64,000 nucleotides of DNA from the human T2T-CHM13v2.0 reference genome, Homo sapiens. Numbering within the stretch: position 1 is the stretch's first letter; every line of letters starts with the position of its first letter. Below the pieces are notes generated by a model. That model was given only the letters and a program-made list of their open reading frames with translations. It was not told where the DNA came from and did no database searches. Both the position numbers and the translations under genes were made by a program. The DNA is taken from the NCBI RefSeq assembly GCF_009914755.1, contig NC_060925.1; one strand, 5' to 3'. Of the stretch, positions 42,701-61,734 are shown one piece after another.

Positions 42701-42828
42701 ACTATCTTCCTTTAAAGAGTATAAAACTTTGTTTTGTTAGGCACTTAAGTTACTTATAGAACAAGTTGATCCTCTTGAGTCTCTTTAAAACTTTGTTTTG
42801 GATGTGTGTGATGGCTCACGCCTTACCT

Positions 42829-45800
42829 ATGGGTAAGACACAGAGTTCTAGCATGTCCCCCAGCGTCAACCCCAAGCAGGACAGGGGCAGGAGGTCAGTG
42901 GAACCCTTCTGCGGGTCTGAGATCTACGAGTAGGCAGCAGCCAGCAAGGGCCAAGGTGGCGGCAAAGAGGAGCAGATGCACATCATGGGTGTAAAAGGCT
43001 GACCACTTGTGTGTCTCCCAATGCCAGCCCCAAGCAGGACAGGCACAGAAGGTCGGGAGGGCCCTCTGACCTGTCTCAGAACTATGAGCCAGTGGCAGTG
43101 AGTGAAGGCACAGATGGCAGCAGAGAGGGGCAAAAGCACCCCATGCATAACACACTGACCTCTTGGTGACCGAGAGTGCCAACCCCAAGCAGGGCCAGTG
43201 CAGGAGGTCAGTGGACCCCTACTGCATATGTGAGATCAACAAGCAGATGGCAGCAAGAGAGGACACTGGCAGCAGTGGAGAGGAGCAGAGTCGCCCCATG
43301 GGTAGCAGGCTGAGCTCTCGTGTGTCCGAGTGGTGGTTCCAAGCAGGGCCGGCACAGAAAGTTGACGGAGTCCTACTAAGGGTGTGAGATCTCTGAGCAA
43401 GCTGCAATGAGCAAACACGCAGATGGCAGAGGAAAGGAGCAGAAGCACCGCATGGGCAAGACACTGACCTCTTGCATGTCCCCCAGTGCTGGCCCCAAGC
43501 AGTATTGCTGCAGGAGCTCAGAGAAGCCCTACTGCGAGTTTGAGATCTATAAGCAGGCTGCAGAGAGCAAACATGCAGATGGTAGAGGCGAGGAGAGAAG
43601 GAGCCCCATAGGTACCAGGCTGACCTCTTTCATGTCCCCTAATGCCAGCCCCAAAAGGGCCGGTGCAGGAGGACTGCAGAGTCTCACTTCAGTTCTGAAA
43701 TCTACCAGCAGGCAAAAGCAAAAGATAGCGCAGGTAGCGACAGAGAGGAGTAGAGGCACACCTTGGGTAAGACATTGACCTCTTGCATGTCCCCCATTGC
43801 CAGCCCCAAGCAGGACAGGTGCAGGAGGTTGGCAGGGCCCTACTGTGGGTCTGAGATCTACGAGCAGGCAGCAGCCAGTGAGGACTCAGGCAGTAGTGAC
43901 GATGAGCAGAAGCGCACCACGGGTAACAGGCTGACCCCTTGTGTCTTATGCCAGCCCCAAGCAGCACAAGCACAGGAAGTTGGCAGAGCCCTACCATGGG
44001 TCAGATCTACCAGCAGGCAGAAACAAAGAATGGTGCAGATGGCAGTGGAAAGGAGCAAAGGCACACCAAAGGTAACATGCTGACCTCTTCCGTGTCCTTC
44101 AGTGCCAGGCCCAAGCAGGACCAGTGTAGGAGGTAGGCAGAATCTTACTGCGAGGCTGAGACCTAGGAGCAGACAGCAGCTGCAAACATGCAGATGACAG
44201 AAGAAGTGGAGGTGCCCTGTGGATCACAGGCTAACTTCTCATGTCCTAGAGTGCCAGCCCCAACCAGGCTGACCCAAGACTTCGGCGGGAACACTACTGT
44301 GAGGCTGCATTCTCCAAGCAGCCTGCAGGAGGCATACAAGCAGATGGCAGAGGAGAGGAGTGGAGGCGCCCCATGGGTCACAGGCTAACCTCTTGCATGT
44401 CCCGGGGTTCCAGCTCCAAGCAATGTCAGTGCAGGAGATCGACAGAATTCTACTGTGGGTCTGAGATCTCCGAGCAGGCTGCAGAGAGCAAACATGCAGA
44501 TGGTGGAAGAGAGGAACAGAGCTGCTCTATGGGTAACAGGCTGGCCTCTTGTATGTCCCAAAGTGCCAGCCCCGAGTGGGGTTGGCACAGGAGGTTGGTG
44601 GGGGACTACTGCAAATCTGAGATCAAGGAGCAGCCAGCAGCAAGCAAGGGCACAGGCAGCAGCAGAGAGGAGCAAAGATGCCCCATGGGTAACACTCTGA
44701 TTTCTTGCATGTCCCCTAGTGCCAGCCCCAAACAGGACAGGCATAGGAAGTCGGTGGAGCCCTACTGTGAGTTTCAGATGTATGAGCAAGCGGCAGCGAG
44801 TGAAGGTGTAGGTGGTAGTGGAAAGAAACAAAGGCACCCCTTGGGTAATGCATTGGCGTCTTGCATGTTCCCCAAAACCAGTCACAACCAGAGCTGGTGC
44901 AGGAGGTCAGTGGAACTCTACCTCAGATCTGAGATCTACGAGCAGGCTGTAGTGAGCAAACATGCAGATGGCAGAGGAGAGGGGCAGAAGTGCCCCAAGA
45001 GTAATATGCTGATCATTTATGTGTCTTGAAATGCCAGCCATGAGCGGTGCTGGTACAAGAGGTTGGCGGAGCTCTACTGGGGGTCTGAGATTTATGAGGA
45101 ACAGGAGGCAATGATCAAAGGTACAGATGGCAGTGGATAGGACTGGAAGAACCCTCTGGGGAACATGCTGACTACTTGTATGTCCCTCAATCCCAGCCCC
45201 AAGTAGGGCTGGCACAGGAGATTTGTGGAGCCCTATTGTGGGTCTGAGATCTATAAGCATGCAGCAGTGAGTAAAGGTGCAGGCCACGGTGGAGAGAAGT
45301 GCAGGTGCCACATGGGTAACATGATGACCTCTTGCGTGTCCCATGCTGCCAGCCCCCAATAGAGCTGGTGCAGGAGGTCAGTGGAGCCCTATTATGAGTT
45401 TGAGATCTATGAGCATGCAGCATTGAACAAAGGCACAGGCAGTGGTGGAGAGGAGTGGAGGTGCCCCATTGGTAACATGCTGAACTCTTGCATCTTCCCC
45501 AATGCCAGCCCTGTGTGGGGCTGCTGCACAGGGCTGGTGGAGCCCGATTGTAGGGCTGAGATCTATGAGCAGGTGGCAGCAAGCAAAAATGCAGGCAGTG
45601 GCAGAGAAGAGTGGAAGCTGGTCTGGCACAGGAGATCAGTGGAGCCCTACCCACAGGTCTGAGATCTGCAAGCAGGCAGCAGTGAGCAAAGGAACATATG
45701 GCAGTAGAGAAGAGCAGAAGTGCACCATGGGGACCATGCCGACCTATTGTGTGTCACCCAATGCTAGCACCAAACTGGGCTGGATCAGGGGGACAGCGGG

Positions 45801-45962
45801 GTCCTACTTCAGGTCTGAGATCTGTGAGCAGACAGCAGCAAGCAAAGGTTGACATGGTGGTGAAGAGGAGCAGAACCACTCCATGGAAAGCATGCTGACT
45901 TGTGTGTCCCCCAATGCCAGCTCCAAGCTGGTCTGCCAAAGGACATCAGTCTGAGCCCTACA
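42829..45962 (+). repeat. About 20.5 x 156-bp diverged tandem array derived from CCNYL-family exon 1 (5'UTR plus first ~35 codons)
   Basis: Unit starts at 42829, 42985, 43143, 43298, 43452, 43608, 43763, 43919, 44068, 44219, 44373, 44529, 44685, 44841, 44997, 45156, 45312, 45468, ~45620 (partial), 45727, 45883. Example unit MGNTLISCMSPSASPKQDRHRKSVEPYCEFQMYEQ versus recalled CCNYL1 MGNTLTCCVSPNASPKLGRRAGSAELYCASDIYEA. Confidence 0.9.
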
Positions 45963-46951
45963 ATTTATCATTCTATGAGACTTTTTCGAAGCTTTCTTCA
46001 TATCTTCTTTGCCTTTTCTTAATGAGAACTCAAATACTCCAACTTCTGAGTACCCATCCCATTCTCCTTATCTATCTAGATGGTACCTAAATGAAGGAGC
46101 CAGGTAAGAGTCTGATTGTTCCCTTTCTCTTATGTGTTAAGGTAGCTGATACTTGGGAAAATTTAGACCCAATGTTTAGGGATTTCTTGCTTAAATTCAG
46201 AATAGAGGTTGGCGTATGGAGTTTTTAATAAGTTGTTTTAAGTCACCTCGATAGAAATGGCTTTATTCCTCCAACTATAATTTGAACACTGAAGGGAAGA
46301 AAATTGGAGAAGTGCTTAAAATGATTATGAATGGTGTAAAATGTTACTGCCAGGGCTGCAGAATAGTTGATGGTTTTTTAAACCCAAAGCTTACCCACAG
46401 TGTTTTGATTGCTTTAAGATTTCCTCTTTAACCCAAATATATCTTCAGATCTACTCTGGTGACTTACTGGACTTCATTTTCCTCCTTGTTCTAAAAGTGG
46501 AGGGGTGGTTCATAGTAAAAAAATTTCAAGAGCTGGAACATAAATTCAGAGTTACATTTGTGATGTAAAGGTTTGGGAGTTTAAAATGCCAGATGCTGCC
46601 TGTTCAAGTGTTTGTTTCCATAGCTCCCTCCTCATGTCAACAGAATTATGTTCAAAGATGAGAGTGTTAGAGTTCAAACTCTAATCTCTGATAGGGATGG
46701 AAAGGGGGGAGATGAAAGAAAATTTTTAATATTTTACCATCAGAAAAAGAACGAATTTAAGTAGAAATGGTTTTGAATAATATGGTTCTTGAATAAAAAC
46801 TAAGTTCTTTGAAATAGAAAACATTGTATCATAAAGATAGTTAAATCTGGTTGTCTCATTTGTTTTAATAAATGCCAGATATTTCATTAGTATAGAGAAA
46901 ATGTCTTATAGCTCTTCTGTTTAAACTTTGATTGGGCTCTTAATTTCTTTA

Positions 46952-47270
<319 letters not shown>

Positions 47271-47873
47271 AAGAAGAAGAATTAAAGCTCATGATGTATG
47301 TGCCTTTATAACTGGAAAGTACCATATTCAATTTTCAGAATATTCAATAATAGTGAAAGAACGAATAGATTGTGTTAATAGATTGTAACTTTATGCACAA
47401 AGTATGGAAGTACTTGTGAATATTTATGCTCTGTTTGGTGGTGTAAGGTAAACCTCAGTGACTTTACACACCAGTTGGTAGATGGGTAGTGCTGGATGAG
47501 ATCCCAAAATAGGCTCTTCATGTCTTTTTTTAGTATGTACAACACATTTTAATGTACATCTTATTTGGCCCTTCCAAACACAAATAAGGCCTGTGTATAT
47601 TCTCCCTGTATTGATGATGAAAAAACAAAGACTTTGAGATCTGAAATGACTATGTAAGACAGCTACTGAACAGAACTAAGGTTCTATAGTAAGTACCCTG
47701 AAACTGACATGGAGATGGTAGCGATGCCTAATTCAGTTCCTAAACTTTAAAACTGTGGAATACATTGTATGTTTTACCTATAAAGTAAACTTATCTCTTA
47801 GAACTTACTCCACCTTGATTAGTTCAATTAAAAGCTTATTTTATACAACTCAGAGGCAACATTTACCTGTCCA

Positions 47874-48010
47874 TTTTTTTTTCTAAAGGGAAAGGGGTCT
47901 TAACTGTGTTGCCCATACTGGCCTCAGTCTTCTGGCCAGGGCTCAAGTGATCCTCCTGCCTCAGCCTCCTGAGTAGCTGGAATTACTGATATATTCCATC
48001 TTGCCTGGCT
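47874..48010 (-). mobile_element. FAM/FLAM Alu monomer
   Basis: Reverse Alu monomer. Confidence 0.7.
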
Positions 48011-48700
48011 CCATCTTATGTCTATACATTAATTTCAACAGATACGGATAAAAGTAGAGGTAATAAAATTACCCAAATTTACCAATCAAGCAGGTTAATA
48101 ATTTTTAAAGAGTTTTCTCTTGTCACTGTAAATTGAAGCTGAGAATTTCCTGGACAAGAGAAGCTGGAGACAGGAGAGGTAAGGTATCATGCCTTAAGCA
48201 TAGAACAATAATAAGGAGTGTTAAATCAGAAAAGTTAAAAAAATAGTTTGTGAGCACAGAATTTAACATTTTGTTTATTTGCATGACACTTAAATTTTCA
48301 TTTCAATTTGCCTCTTGAAATTTATTTTTCTGGCATTCAATAAAGTGATAAGCGAAACCTCAATTTCAGCATTTGCCTACAATTCCTAAGTTTCCATAGA
48401 AACTGAGGCAGGACATTAACAGTTTGCTGTTAATATCTTTAGTTTGGACAATTTTATATCAGTTTACTTGGAAACTGAGAAATTCCTACTTAGATGTAAA
48501 ACATTTTAGTTTTACTGCAATGAAGAATGGAATTATTTTGGTTACTTAGAAAAAAATCAGATGTAAATAGTGTACTTTGTTCTTCTGAATCATTTCAGAA
48601 TAATGTGATTTCTCCAAGCCACTTCACAGAGATATTCCTAAGAACCTTTTTTCAGATAGTCCCACAGACATTTTCTACTACCTTGCCTTTATTTAAACAG

Positions 48701-51071: not shown

Positions 51072-51543
51072 GTTGGGTTTTATTCCTTTCAACAGCAAGC
51101 CTATAGAAAAAGATCAACTGCTTGGGCTGGAGGAGAAGAACACTTAGGTCAATACATGATTTGTTAGCAACCAGCTAGAGTTTAGGAGAGAACACTTTTG
51201 CTGTGCACTTGAAAAGAAACCTGTCTATGGGCACTGGATAAGACACAGGCCTTTTCATGAAGCTTCAAGCCATTCAGAAAGCTTAGCACATGATGGAGGA
51301 AAACAGGAATGGTGTTTCCAGATGTAGAGAGATAGGTGATGCTGGAGGGAAAGCTGGATCAGAAGAGAAGGAGTTCATTGTAGATGAATTAGGTTTAATG
51401 TCCCTGTGAGATAGCAGAGTGGTAGTGTTCAGTCATCATGTGGATATACCGGACTGGAACCTGAATGTGAGCTAGAGGTAATGAATGAGCAGTATGAGTA
51501 GCTACTTAAATGTGGAGAAAGTGTGTAGAGTGAAAGTGGACAT

Positions 51544-51672
51544 GCTGGGCATGGTAGCAAATGTCTCTAGTCCCAGCTGCTTGGGAGGCTGAGGTGGGAG
51601 GATTGCTTGAGCCCAGGAATTTTTGTGTGGCCTGTGCAACATGGTGAGACCCCATCTCTTAAAAAAAAAAAA
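51544..51672 (+). mobile_element. FAM/FLAM Alu monomer within an L2 remnant
   Basis: Alu monomer with A tail. Confidence 0.75.
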
Positions 51673-52470
51673 GAGAGAGAAAGTGAATAGAAGATAGGCC
51701 TGTAAGGACTATCAGGATGTAAGGAACAAGCCCTCAGATATGTAGGTAGAATTGGAGGAGGAAAAGCAGGATAGGTTACTAAAAGAACAAAGAATTCAAG
51801 ATAATAGAGGCTGTGATACAGTGCTAAATGCTGCCAGGAAGTTGTTCACTCTGTAAACACTGAATGCTGACTCTGCCACTCTTCTAAGTGCTGGAGTAGA
51901 GAGGACAGGTTGAACACAGTTTTTGCCTTTATGAGCTTATGGCCTAATGAAGAAGACATTTTTTTTTTTTCAGGTAGTGGCAAATAGCAAGAAAAGAAAT
52001 TGGGATAAAAGGAAACAGAGTGATTGGAGGAGTTCTTAATTTTAGATCGAATGAGAAGGAGCCTCTCTAGAGAAGTAACATTTGAAAAGTGACCTGACAA
52101 AAGTGAGGAAGGGAAGGAGCACGGACATTACAGGCACTGAGGTGAGTGCCAAGACTGGGACAGAAATGTGTTTCATATGTGTTCAGTGAACATATAGCAA
52201 GGGGGCCAGCATGGTCAGAGTGAGAAATGAGGGAAGTAATGGAGAAGATGAGATCACACAGGCAATGCCATAACTCACAGGGCCTTTTGTCTTGCAGGCC
52301 ATGGGAAGAAGTCAAGTTTTTATTCCAGTTTTATGGGTAACTTTTGTCATATCTTGAGCAGGGGAGTGCAGTGCTCTCAATTTAAGAAGTTATGCTGACT
52401 GCTTTGGGGGGAGTAGACCATAGCAGGGAGGCAAAGTAGAGGCAGAGTAGAAAGTTAAGAAGCAACTAGG

Positions 52471-58907
<6,437 letters not shown>

Positions 58908-59676
58908 AAGAAGCAACTAGGATGATACAGGTGAGCAGTGAAAAATGGCAGCACAGAATCAAAAATATGCAGCCTACCAGTGAAAGTAGACATAGCAGGA
59001 GTTGCACACAGATTGGAACAAGCCAATTCAAATGTATGTATCTGGCCTCACAAGTGGGGAAAATAAAAATGCCCTGTACAAGATTAGGGAAGGCTTGGGG
59101 AGTGGAGCATTGGGATGAAGAGCTCTGGTTTGCAGATGTGAAGGTTGGGCACCTTGGCATGAGGAGTCTCTGGAAAGTGATGGTGGCAGGGGCCAGGTGG
59201 GTTTGGTTAAGGAGAGATGGGAGGTGAGAAGCGGGCACCAGGGCATGATGCTGTGAGCAAATGAGGACATCTCTGGGGGAGTTTTGGAGAGTGGGATGAG
59301 AATAAAGGAAACACAGTCATATTGGGGAAGATTTCGGGCAGAGGGAAAGTCTTCAAAAAGAGGTGATTGCAGGAACAGTGTTCTGCGGAAGTGGGACAGG
59401 ATCAACCACACTGATAAGAGAGTTGGCATAGTGGGAAAAAGGAACTCTCTCTCATTGACCCAGGAAGGCAAGTGGTATCAATGAGTGTCCACAGGTTACC
59501 AGCTTAGCAGTAAAGGCAACAGGCAGTTGAGGGCTTGCCAGTGCTGTTTCAATGCTCTCTAATATCTATAGAACATTAACCTGGGGCAGGAGGTTCATTC
59601 TTAGGATACTTGAGAGTGTGGAGTTTGGGTGCAAGGGAGAAGAATCTAAGAATACATTGTGTTCAAGAGCCATTTT

Positions 59677-59865
59677 GTTTTTGAAAACACTGTTGAGTTT
59701 GGGGAACACTGCCGGATCTGAGTTGCCAACCTAACTTTCAGATACTAAACAAACTCTTAAAATGAACTGTTTTGAAAACACAGTTGGGTTTGGAGAACGT
59801 TGTCAGATCTGAGCTGCCAATCTGATAACCTTCAGACAATAAGCTCTCATAAAATGAACTGTTTT
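59677..59865. repeat. Two-copy ~92-bp tandem duplication
   Basis: ttttgaaaacac..gtttgg..gatctgag.tgccaa..ttcaga..taaaatgaactg occurs twice. Confidence 0.85.
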
Positions 59866-60151
59866 CCTTTTGTCTTGATACATAGTTCAAATGATATATA
59901 GACCATATGCTTCTGCAGAGCACCCTTTGAGGTAACAACACCTCACGGCTTACCTCCATAACCTTTACTCAACTGTTCACTTTACCAAATTCTTTGCAGG
60001 TAGATGTTTGATAGATGTAAAATACTTCATGAGATTTTCTCACAAACTGCTTGGCAAGTTTAGGGAATCCCAAGGATCAGAGACTGACAGCTGTTACTGC
60101 CTTTAAGCCAACAGAATTGACAATGTTGCAGATGATGTAAGACAGAAAATA

Positions 60152-60585
<434 letters not shown>

Positions 60586-61142
60586 TCATGCTGTTCTGCA
60601 CAGCAGCCACTGGGAGGCTCTCTTGGCTAGCTGTTCAAGCTAGCGCCACAGAAGGATTAGTTATTGTGAAAAGGAGAAGATAGCAATGTACTCAGTATCC
60701 CCTGGGTTTTATACAATCAAGCATGACATACCTGTGAAATTCCTATCTACCTGCAAACTAGATATAGCAACACATTGCACAAGGTGGGCACTGAAGTATT
60801 CATTTAACAACTTTAATGCACACTGGGCCTATGCATGTGCTGCCTTTTATGGGTGTGAAGGTAATGACTCCATCTGTCTTCATGATACCCTTGGCTGAGA
60901 TGTCCAGTCATTCCTGTGATCAAAATTGGACTGGAAATTTCTAAGGACAGAGTAGATGGCAGAGACATCTGACTTACAACTGTGATTTGATCTCTTGCTT
61001 TGGCTGACTAAGCAAAATCTGAAGAATATAAAAATAAAAGGCATTTATTTTCTGGCCAAAAACAGAAGTAATCTATCATTCATGCATTCTTATCACAGCA
61101 GCTAAATTGAACTAAAATAAAACATCAGTGCTCTCTTTGCAA

Positions 61143-61307
61143 ATTTACCTGGAAAGGATCTTGACTTATGCTGAAATTGACATTTGTCCATCTAACTGGA
61201 AAAGGATTTCCTTGGGAGTCATTCTTTTTGCCTCCAAGATTATGCATGATCAAGCTGTACAAAGTGGAAAACTGTCAGATCTTCAAGGATATCCCAGTAA
61301 AAGACAT
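61143..61307 (+). pseudogene. Decayed cyclin Y-like cyclin-box exon
   Basis: [39 protein letters not shown], then after a 2-nt deletion [15 protein letters not shown] (recalled CCNYL1 [56 protein letters not shown]); donor gtgagt 61308-61313; acceptor reads ctctctttgcAA. Confidence 0.9.
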
Positions 61308-61734
61308 GTGAGTTTATAAGGTTTTGTTAAACTTTCTAACCGTTTTCAAATACCTCATTTTTTCCCATAAAGTTAACACTTTAAAAATATTTTGAAAGGT
61401 AACATTGTACAGATAATGAAGATAGGTATAAAACTACCTAGTTTTTCTATCCAGATTCAGTATAACAATTCATATTTTTTCATTATTAATGAATAAGTCT
61501 TGATGTGTTACTGTTGCAGTAATCTGCCTGAGAAATTGAAAAGTATTTTCCAGTATTTATTTTTGGCAAGCATCTTACAAGTGTATTACCAGAACAACAC
61601 AGTACAATAAAGATTTTTATGGCTTTCTACAAGCTGTCAGTTTTAGTCATTTTTTAAGGAGTACATGTCTGGCCTTTGAAATAATTGGCTACTGGAGAAG
61701 TTATAACTTCAATGAGTTATACCAAACTTACAGA

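What the first reader, a model, noticed from the sequence alone, without database searches (positions are those of the whole stretch)
42829..45962. Minisatellite made from a cyclin Y-like gene's first exon: about 20 tandem copies of the start codon and N-terminal lipidation peptide
Seen: a GC-rich array with modal period 156 bp (spacings 156,158,155,154,156,155,156,149,151,154,156,156,156,156,159,156,156,259,156). The hand-built consensus is about atgggtaacaYgctgacctcttgcatgtcccccaatgccagccccaagcagggccggcgcaggaggtcggtggagccctactgcgggtctgagatctacgagcaggcagcagcgagcaaaggcgcaggcggcagcggagaggagcggaggcgcccc. Knowledge (recalled): the first ~100 nt match the CCNYL1 CDS start (ATGGGGAACACGCTGACCTGTTGCGTGTCCCCCAATGCCAGCCCCAAGCTGGGCCGG...TACTGCGCGTCCGACATCTACGAG), and the MG-x-x-x-x-C-C N-terminus is the membrane-anchoring acylation motif of cyclin Y proteins. 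Inference: the remaining ~50 nt is 5'UTR-like, so a UTR+ATG+35-codon segment was tandemly amplified. This is a gene-derived satellite that standard repeat families would not explain.
Basis: partly seen in the sequence, partly recalled or inferred. Interest (0 to 1): 0.9.

Follow-up and report, generated by a model that had tools for sequence, protein, structure and literature searches.

The report
Amplified first-exon relic of a cyclin-Y-like pseudogene
A 3.1-kb stretch of human chromosome 1 holds about twenty decayed head-to-tail copies of the start of a cyclin-Y-like gene, sitting at the front of an old, broken, unlisted duplicate of that gene; it is a genomic fossil rather than a working element.

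Summary
Window 42829-45962 holds 20 tandem units plus one partial unit. The period is 156 bp and mean pairwise identity is 66%.

A profile of the units aligns in one block to the chr2 cyclin-Y-like gene, from 34 nt upstream of its ATG to codon 34 (E 1.9e-27). Each unit is therefore the last ~42-54 nt of the 5'UTR plus the first 34-38 codons.

New here:
- **The array is not free-standing.** Its 3' flank is colinear with intron 1, intron 6 and exon 7 of the chr2 gene. It is the amplified front end of a non-processed CCNYL pseudogene that the supplied RefSeq table does not list. That pseudogene lacks the promoter, the exon-1 donor and exons 2-6.
- **Paralogs share the duplication.** Four loci on chr16 and chr20 carry the same segment in 2-3 tandem copies.
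- **The array is old and frozen.** The unit tree is star-like, there is no higher-order structure, CpG o/e is 0.18 against 0.94 in the source, and units differ from each other more than the locus differs from its paralogs.
- **No coding constraint.** Third codon positions are not more variable, and 9 of 18 full units carry in-frame stops.

Verdict: a real, gene-derived, locus-specific tandem array, most likely non-functional. Interest is modest.

The parts
42829..45962 (+). Tandem array of 20 units plus 1 partial unit, period 156 bp. Each unit is the CCNYL exon-1 ATG to about codon 34-38, followed by the last ~42-54 nt of the 5'UTR. The first unit starts at the ATG. The last unit (45883-45962) is cut at about CDS +80.
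   Evidence: TRF; alignment A1; per-unit table; nhmmer against chr2 exon 1, E 1.9e-27; alignment with paralogs
45963..48506 (+). Homologue of CCNYL intron 1, starting about 290-320 bp downstream of the exon-1 donor. The rest of exon 1 and the donor are missing. It carries an Alu-like insertion at about 46955-47275 that is absent from the paralogs.
   Evidence: blastn: chr2 208186642-208189188 at 73-76%, E down to 0; chr10 copies at 70-75%, E 1e-115 to 1e-140. The genome search finds only CCNYL paralog loci.
51077..52471 (+). Homologue of the distal part of CCNYL intron 6 (chr2 208217215-208219030). The about 28 kb that holds exons 2-6 on chr2 has no counterpart in the window.
52480..58912 (.). 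Inserted interspersed repeat (LINE-like, about 85% identical to copies elsewhere, not colinear with the gene). It interrupts the pseudogene and is not part of the array.
   Evidence: 84-85% matches to non-colinear places in the chr10 stretches
58908..61686 (+). Homologue of the end of CCNYL intron 6, exon 7 and the start of intron 7. The exon 7 relic is at about 61142-61308, 80% identical, with the acceptor AG lost and a 2-nt deletion. Colinearity ends here.
   Evidence: The chr2 exon 7 translation matches Cyclin-Y (PDB 9r2i_D) at E 1.7e-32.

Best explanation
The array is the tandemly amplified 5' end of exon 1 of an old, non-processed (genomic) duplicate of a cyclin-Y-like gene on chr1q42.

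Steps shown:
- The unit is the last ~42-54 nt of the 5'UTR plus codons 1 to about 34-38 of CCNYL exon 1.
- The array is followed in order and on the same strand by homologues of CCNYL intron 1, intron 6 and exon 7.
- The promoter, the exon-1 donor and exons 2-6 are absent, and exon 7 is disabled.
- The units form one star-like group with long, roughly equal branches.

Steps inferred:
- A 156-bp tandem duplication arose in exon 1, with its junction in a GC-rich stretch that is alike on the coding and UTR sides.
- It was expanded in one early burst to about 20 copies by unequal exchange or replication slippage.
- The copy lost its CpG-island state. CpGs decayed and units drifted apart to about 66% identity, which stopped further homogenisation.

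Today it is most likely a neutral relic with no coding or known RNA function.
For: Unit to gene mapping:
- nhmmer of 19 units against the chr2 locus: HMM positions 9-144 of 156 match L013 1498-1633 (ATG at 1532), E 1.9e-27. The chr10 copies cover HMM positions 1/2 to 151/152.
- The alignment shows the UTR tail and the CDS head.
- The chr2 gene is a cyclin Y relative: exon 7 matches PDB Cyclin-Y at E 1.7e-32, and the exon 1 peptide aligns to the Cyclin-Y N-terminus only weakly (E 0.068).

Genomic context:
- The 3' flank is colinear with the chr2 gene and with two chr10 paralogs.
- Exons 2-6, 8 and 9 give no hit in the window. Exon 7 gives 78.9% identity, E 6e-86, with a lost acceptor and a 2-nt deletion.
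- The 5' flank matches only a dispersed repeat family (40 of 407 candidates scored, none at a CCNYL locus).

Age and lack of homogenisation:
- The 19 units are one side of a branch (98/95), star-like, with end branches of 0.13-0.30.
- Identity does not depend on lag (0.63-0.68 for lags 1-10).
- K2P between units is 0.48 (transversions 0.127 per site), against 0.23 (0.080) between the flank and chr2 intron 1.
- CpG o/e is 0.18 and GC 55% in the array, against 0.94 and 70% in the source segment.

No coding constraint:
- Identity to the consensus by codon position is 0.81/0.77/0.79.
- 11 in-frame stops lie in 9 of 18 full units.
- 8 of 20 units have frame-breaking lengths, and the ATG is kept in 11 of 20.
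- The longest open frame has no Pfam family, and there is no Rfam family.
Against: - The array holds a 259-codon open frame in the ancestral frame (44250-45029).
- The period is exactly 52 codons and the consensus is open through the former UTR.
- In-frame stops are slightly fewer than in column shuffles (11 against 15.1 +/- 2.1; 4% of 2000 shuffles as low). Open frames of 188 and 173 codons on the opposite strand show that long open frames are common in this composition.
- Units differ from each other by more transversions than the locus differs from its paralogs. Either the array mutates faster, being GC-rich, or its amplification is as old as or older than the locus split. I could not separate these.
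- Absence of function cannot be shown from sequence. I had no expression, methylation or population data.
Confidence: 0.85

Rival explanations
1. The array is, or recently was, a protein-coding repeat: an in-frame 52-residue unit repeating the N-terminal acylation peptide, translated from one of the retained ATGs.
For: - The period is 156 = 52 codons, and the majority consensus translates without a stop through the former UTR.
- There is a 259-codon open frame over units 10-14.
- In-frame stops are mildly depleted.
- 9 of 20 units keep Met-Gly.
Against: - Third positions are not more variable (0.81/0.77/0.79).
- 9 of 18 full units carry stops and 8 of 20 units break the frame.
- There is no promoter homology upstream and no Pfam hit.
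- The supplied RefSeq table has no gene model here.
- The opposite strand has open frames of 173-188 codons.
Confidence: 0.04
2. The array is a known satellite or transposon-derived repeat family that only resembles CCNYL exon 1 by chance or composition.
For: None from my calls. I had no Dfam or RepeatMasker library, so a named family cannot be formally excluded.
Against: - The whole-genome search with 651 bp of the array gave 16 matches: 11 inside the array and 5 at exon 1 of CCNYL paralogs.
- The unit aligns in one block across the UTR-ATG boundary of the gene at E 1.9e-27.
- The flank continues into the gene's intron.
- The hub notes that the stretch is not among the long masked stretches.
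Confidence: 0.02
3. The array derives from a retro-copied 5' fragment of a CCNYL mRNA that was amplified after insertion.
For: A processed copy with 3 units does exist on chr16. It maps to 9 exon blocks of the chr2 gene.
Against: The chr1 array is followed by about 2.5 kb of intron-1 homologue and later by intron 6, exon 7 and intron 7 with intron sequence kept. A retrocopy would lack these.
Confidence: 0.01
4. The array is a decayed pseudogene part that has been co-opted as a non-coding element, such as a lncRNA exon, an enhancer or an insulator.
For: - The + strand is purine-rich (AT skew about +0.25, GC skew +0.1 to +0.2).
- GC is raised relative to the flanks.
- Nothing else in my calls supports it.
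Against: - CpG o/e is 0.18, which suggests long-term methylation.
- There is no Rfam family.
- The only RefSeq functional element in the window lies elsewhere (53089-53588, hub table).
- Units have drifted as expected without constraint.
Confidence: 0.08

Closest known systems
Exon 1 of the chr2 cyclin-Y-like gene
   Same: The unit covers its -34/-45 to +102/+114 segment. This includes the ATG, the Met-Gly start and the SPNASPK...YC..IYE peptide.
   Different: - There are 20 copies instead of 1, at about 70-80% identity.
- The consensus reads Ser-Cys where the gene reads Cys-Cys.
- CpG o/e is 0.18 against 0.94.
- There is no promoter and no splice donor.
CCNYL paralogs on chr16 (23.78 Mb processed copy; 39.10 Mb with intron) and chr20 (29.54 and 30.43 Mb)
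   Same: The same exon-1 segment is tandemly duplicated in 2-3 units. The junction is within about 12 nt of the chr1 junction.
   Different: - They hold only 2-3 units of about 140 bp.
- Their internal units share a 12-nt deletion that removes the Cys-Cys region and is absent from chr1.
- The tree neither joins nor separates them from the chr1 units (AU p 0.40-0.51).
CCNYL2 and CCNYL3, the CCNY-like sequences usually called pseudogenes
   Same: They are members of the same expanded human family of cyclin-Y-like copies. A passage of bioRxiv 10.64898/2025.12.15.694124 says two extra CCNY-like sequences are typically regarded as pseudogenes and that Y-type cyclins carry N-terminal myristoylation and palmitoylation signals.
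   Different: - The chr1 locus is not in the supplied RefSeq table.
- It keeps only exon 1 (amplified) and exon 7.
- Which of my chr10 and chr16 loci bear those names was not established by any search.
Gene-derived tandem arrays (coding VNTRs such as LPA KIV-2, seen only in the listing; D4Z4/DUX4 and RS447/USP17 macrosatellites, recalled)
   Same: The tandem units are made from gene sequence rather than from a transposon or simple motif.
   Different: Those units are kilobases long, hold whole exons or genes, stay homogeneous and vary in copy number. This unit is 156 bp, holds a UTR-plus-start fragment, and its copies are only 66% alike with no sign of ongoing exchange.
Classical GC-rich minisatellites (recalled as a class)
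   Same: A head-to-tail array of a few kb, GC-richer than its surroundings and specific to one locus.
   Different: - The 156-bp unit is longer than the usual 10-100 bp.
- Divergence between units is very high.
- Polymorphism is untested.

Membership tests
Tandem repeat array (minisatellite-like) | Head-to-tail copies with a constant period | tested here: met
   TRF period 156, 17.2 copies, score 778. There are 20 units plus 1 partial unit, 11 of them exactly 156 bp.
Tandem repeat array (minisatellite-like) | Unit length in the classical 10-100 bp range | tested here: not met
   The unit is 156 bp. 'Minisatellite' is therefore used loosely.
Tandem repeat array (minisatellite-like) | Copy-number variation between individuals (VNTR) | not testable with these tools
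   Only one human assembly is held. 66% identity between units makes frequent unequal exchange unlikely, but that is inference.
Derived from cyclin-Y-like exon 1 | Significant contiguous alignment across 5'UTR, ATG and the first codons | tested here: met
   nhmmer E 1.9e-27 to the chr2 locus, -34 to +102. The genome-wide DNA hit has E 3.7e-9. The protein-level hit of the exon-1 peptide to unit 13 has E 0.0029.
Derived from cyclin-Y-like exon 1 | The source gene is a cyclin Y family member | tested here: met
   The chr2 exon 7 translation matches PDB Cyclin-Y 9r2i_D at E 1.7e-32. Pfam Cyclin_N and Cyclin score below their cut-offs for this 56-residue piece. The N-terminal peptide aligns to the Cyclin-Y N-terminus only weakly (E 0.068).
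Non-processed (duplicated) pseudogene | Colinear homology to introns as well as exons of the parent | tested here: met
   Blocks for intron 1, intron 6, exon 7 and intron 7 lie in order on the + strand.
Non-processed (duplicated) pseudogene | Disabling lesions | tested here: met
   - No exon-1 donor and no exons 2-6.
- Exon 7 acceptor lost and a 2-nt deletion.
- Stops in 9 of 18 full units.
Functional cyclin-Y N-terminal acylation signal (Met-Gly ... Cys-Cys) | Met-Gly start and the Cys pair retained | tested here: not met
   Met-Gly is kept in 9 of 20 units. The consensus reads Ser-Cys at the Cys-Cys position. That the motif is the lipidation signal comes from a paper passage, not from a test here.
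Known dispersed repeat or satellite family | Many copies elsewhere in the genome, or a Dfam/Repbase match | tested here: inconclusive
   No copies were found outside the array and the CCNYL paralogs, but no repeat library was available.

The most novel reading that the evidence does not exclude
The 156-bp duplication turned 5'UTR into coding sequence. The period is exactly 52 codons and the consensus is open through the former UTR. An ancestral CCNYL paralog may therefore have briefly encoded a protein with a tandemly repeated N-terminal lipidation peptide. The chr1 array, and the 2-3-unit exon 1 of the chr16 and chr20 copies, would be decayed descendants of that single event. Alternatively, this exon-1 segment is a recurrent hotspot for duplication.
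Probability: 0.1. Interest if true: 0.5.

Novelty: new member of a known kind. Interest (0 to 1): 0.3.

Why it matters
- It adds an unlisted member to the human cyclin-Y-like pseudogene family and explains a 3.1-kb GC-rich tandem array that neither the supplied gene table nor the masking accounts for.
- It is a clean example of a tandem array whose source can be traced to the nucleotide: the boundary of 5'UTR and start codon of a gene.
- The array then froze, which is useful for studying how arrays stop homogenising and how CpG islands decay.
- The same segment is duplicated in four other paralogs. That points either to one old event shared by a subfamily or to a fragile spot in this exon.
- It has no evident medical or functional weight.

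Tried and rejected
- **Higher-order repeat structure.** Identity against lag is flat at 0.63-0.68, and TRF gives only periods 156 and 151.
- **CCNYL promoter homology upstream of the array.** blastn found only Alu matches, and the genome search found a dispersed repeat family.
- **Exons 2-6, 8 and 9 in the window and the next 10 kb.** None found.
- **Shared or separate origin of the duplication in chr1 against chr16 and chr20.** Three AU tests gave p 0.51, 0.42 and 0.40, so nothing is rejected.
- **Pfam on the 259-codon frame and on the exon-1 peptide.** No family.
- **Rfam.** No family at gathering score.
- **Literature.** Searches found no paper describing this chr1 array or a CCNYL-derived tandem repeat. 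The one VNTR paper naming CCNY concerns an unrelated 17-bp intronic repeat on chr10 (passages).
- **Soft-masking in the window file.** It carries none.
- **Protein database searches, structure prediction and complex prediction.** Not used, because the object is non-coding human DNA.
Full report

Yes. Tandem Repeats Finder reports a period of 156 bp, 17.2 copies, 64% matches and score 778 at 42847-45511. An overlapping row has period 156 at 45157-45571.

The one 259-bp interval is a unit plus a partial unit (u18, u18b), a junction that lost about 53 bp. Eleven units are exactly 156 bp, one is 159 bp, and the rest are 149-158 bp. The last unit stops after 80 bp.

GC is 0.52-0.58 inside the array and 0.30-0.47 outside. 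Within-array matches in the whole-genome search reach E 1.3e-48.

**2. What is the unit?**

A search of the window's own assembly with 651 bp of the array gave 16 matches. Eleven lie inside the array. The other five are on chr2 (208.186 Mb), chr10 (39.05 and 43.33 Mb), chr16 (23.78 Mb) and chr20 (30.43 Mb).

It translates to a 74-residue first exon ending at a GT donor. Seven further exon blocks downstream can be traced. Exon 7 matches the solved Cyclin-Y chain 9r2i_D at E 1.7e-32. The N-terminal peptide aligns to the Cyclin-Y N-terminus only weakly (E 0.068). No call names it.

A profile HMM was built from 19 units, re-cut at the junction. The first partial unit and the damaged u18/u18b junction were left out. 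It matches the chr2 locus at L013 1498-1633, with the ATG at 1532. That is one block from -34 to +102, at E 1.9e-27 in 187 kb searched. The chr10 copies cover HMM positions 1/2 to 151/152.

The unit is therefore the last ~42-54 nt of the 5'UTR joined behind codons 1 to ~34-38. The exact junction cannot be placed within about 12 nt, because the coding continuation and the UTR further upstream are both similar GC-rich strings.

A paper passage states that Y-type cyclins carry N-terminal myristoylation and palmitoylation signals, and that CCNYL2 and CCNYL3 are usually regarded as pseudogenes (bioRxiv 10.64898/2025.12.15.694124, passage only).

**3. Context: the array is the front end of a broken gene copy**

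The sequence directly after the array (45963 onward) is homologous to intron 1 of the paralogs.

| Paralog | Identity | E-value |
|---|---|---|
| chr10 copies, over about 1 kb | 70-72% | 1e-115 to 1e-131 |
| chr2 gene, up to window 48506 | 73-76% | down to 0 |

Further on, 51077-52471 and 58908-61686 match chr2 208217215-208221754 in the same order and strand. These blocks are the distal part of intron 6, exon 7 and the start of intron 7. They are interrupted at 52480-58912 by a non-colinear interspersed repeat.

- Exons 2-6, 8 and 9 give no hit in the window.
- Colinearity ends near 61690, and the next 10 kb hold nothing colinear.
- The exon 7 relic (about 61142-61308) is 80% identical, has lost its acceptor AG and carries a 2-nt deletion.
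- About 430 bp are missing between the last unit (CDS about +80) and the intron. This includes the exon-1 donor.
- Upstream of the array there is no promoter homology. Only Alu matches and a dispersed repeat family (40 of 407 candidates scored, none at a CCNYL locus) are seen.
- A genome search with the 3' flank finds only CCNYL paralog loci at 69-76%, or 82-83% for one 200-nt block. The chr1 copy therefore has no close twin.

The supplied RefSeq table lists no gene here.

**4. The same segment is duplicated in other paralogs**

The human genome holds many exon-1-like places: 26 matches from 65 candidates with the exon-1 peptide.

| Locus | Units | Note |
|---|---|---|
| chr2, two chr10 copies | 1 each | |
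| chr20 30.43 Mb and 29.54 Mb | 2 each | |
| chr16 39.10 Mb | 2 | intron kept |
| chr16 23.78 Mb | 3 | processed copy, maps to nine exon blocks of chr2 |

These counts come from the unit profile (sequences; TRF period 140).

Their junction lies within about 12 nt of the chr1 junction. Their internal units share a 12-nt deletion that chr1 lacks.

In trees, the 19 chr1 units form one side of a branch (98/95). The first units of chr16 and chr20 group together (98/95). How the chr1 group attaches is unresolved. Holding chr1 units together with all, with the internal, or with the first chr16/chr20 units costs 0.1-2.4 log-likelihood units (AU p 0.51, 0.42, 0.40). A single shared first duplication is neither shown nor excluded.

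**5. Age and dynamics**

- The unit tree is star-like, with end branches of 0.13-0.30.
- Pairwise identity is 65.7% on average (52-78%) and does not fall with distance along the array. It is 0.63-0.68 for lags 1-10, so there is no higher-order repeat.
- Between units, K2P is 0.48 with 0.127 transversions per site. Between the intron-1 flank and chr2 it is 0.23 with 0.080 (2123 aligned sites). Against the chr10 copies it is 0.27-0.28.
- The amplification is therefore at least about as old as the separation of this copy from its paralogs, unless the GC-rich array mutates faster.
- From recalled primate substitution rates I read 0.23 as tens of millions of years, around or before the early primate radiation. 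This is an estimate, not a result.
- CpG o/e fell from 0.94 in the source segment to 0.18, and GC fell from 70% to 55%. This is as expected if a CpG-island fragment became methylated.
- The two 3'-most units keep the source's CTG codon where the others read CAG. This fits edge units escaping the amplification of an internal variant.

**6. Coding or other function?**

The period is 52 codons, and the majority consensus translates without a stop through the former UTR. The longest open frame is 259 codons over units 10-14, in the ancestral frame.

Against coding:
- Identity to the consensus is 0.81/0.77/0.79 at codon positions 1, 2 and 3, so third positions are not more variable.
- Eleven in-frame stops fall in 9 of the 18 full units examined (u18, u18b and u20 left out).
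- Eight of 20 units break the frame. The ATG survives in 11 of 20 and Met-Gly in 9 of 20.
- The consensus reads Ser-Cys at the Cys-Cys position.
- The opposite strand has open frames of 188 and 173 codons.

Stops are mildly fewer than in column shuffles: 11 against 15.1 +/- 2.1, with 4% of 2000 shuffles as low. I regard this as weak. Pfam finds nothing in the 259-codon frame, and Rfam finds nothing at gathering score.

**7. Mechanism**

Shown:
- the source of the unit;
- the gene context;
- the disabling lesions;
- the star-like divergence of the units.

Inferred:
- A 156-bp tandem duplication arose in exon 1, with its junction in a GC-rich stretch that is alike on both sides.
- One early burst of unequal exchange or replication slippage expanded it to about 20 copies.
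- The copy lost its promoter and island state, CpGs decayed and the units drifted apart, which ended further exchange.
- A deletion removed the rest of exon 1 and the donor.
- A large deletion, or incomplete duplication, removed exons 2-6.

**8. Comparison, novelty and verdict**

The array works like other gene-derived tandem arrays and GC-rich minisatellites, but differs from both. Its unit is a UTR-plus-start-codon fragment of 156 bp. Its copies are only two-thirds alike and show no sign of homogenisation.

It is a member of the human CCNYL pseudogene family by the intron-plus-exon test. It does not meet the classical minisatellite unit size, and variability is untested.

Four literature searches found no description of it. 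Tandem-repeat catalogues and GENCODE, which I could not see, may well list the interval.

Noticed in passing
window 52480-58912: A block of about 6.4 kb, 84-85% identical to non-colinear places inside the chr10 CCNYL paralog stretches. It is probably a LINE insertion splitting the intron-6 homologue. The RefSeq 'enhancer 53089-53588' from the hub table lies inside it.
   Followed up: no
G000 chr16:23776420 region (L010 about 1440-2950): A processed copy of a CCNYL paralog. It maps to nine exon blocks of the chr2 gene and carries three tandem exon-1 units, so a parent transcript already contained the duplication. Its third unit is sister to unit 2 of the intron-bearing chr16:39.10 Mb copy (100/97).
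   Followed up: partly
G000 chrX:64248516-64248721 (minus strand): An exon-1-like match to the chr2 peptide at 71-92% identity within a 274-codon open frame. It is the closest relative of the chr2 exon 1 in the genome and is possibly a young retrocopy.
   Followed up: no
G000 chr10 46.5-50.9 Mb and 74.57 Mb: At least ten near-identical-scoring CCNYL exon-1 plus intron-1 copies (48-52% peptide identity, about 70% DNA identity to the chr1 flank). The family evidently spread with chr10q11 segmental duplications.
   Followed up: no
window 46746-46946: A 200-nt block of the intron-1 homologue is 82-83% identical to nine chr10 copies, while the surrounding intron is about 70% identical. It is either a more conserved intronic element or an embedded repeat.
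   Followed up: no
window 42722-42800: A short direct repeat of about 15 nt occurs twice, 64 bp apart, in the 128 bp of unique sequence between an Alu and the first array unit. Its meaning is unknown.
   Followed up: no
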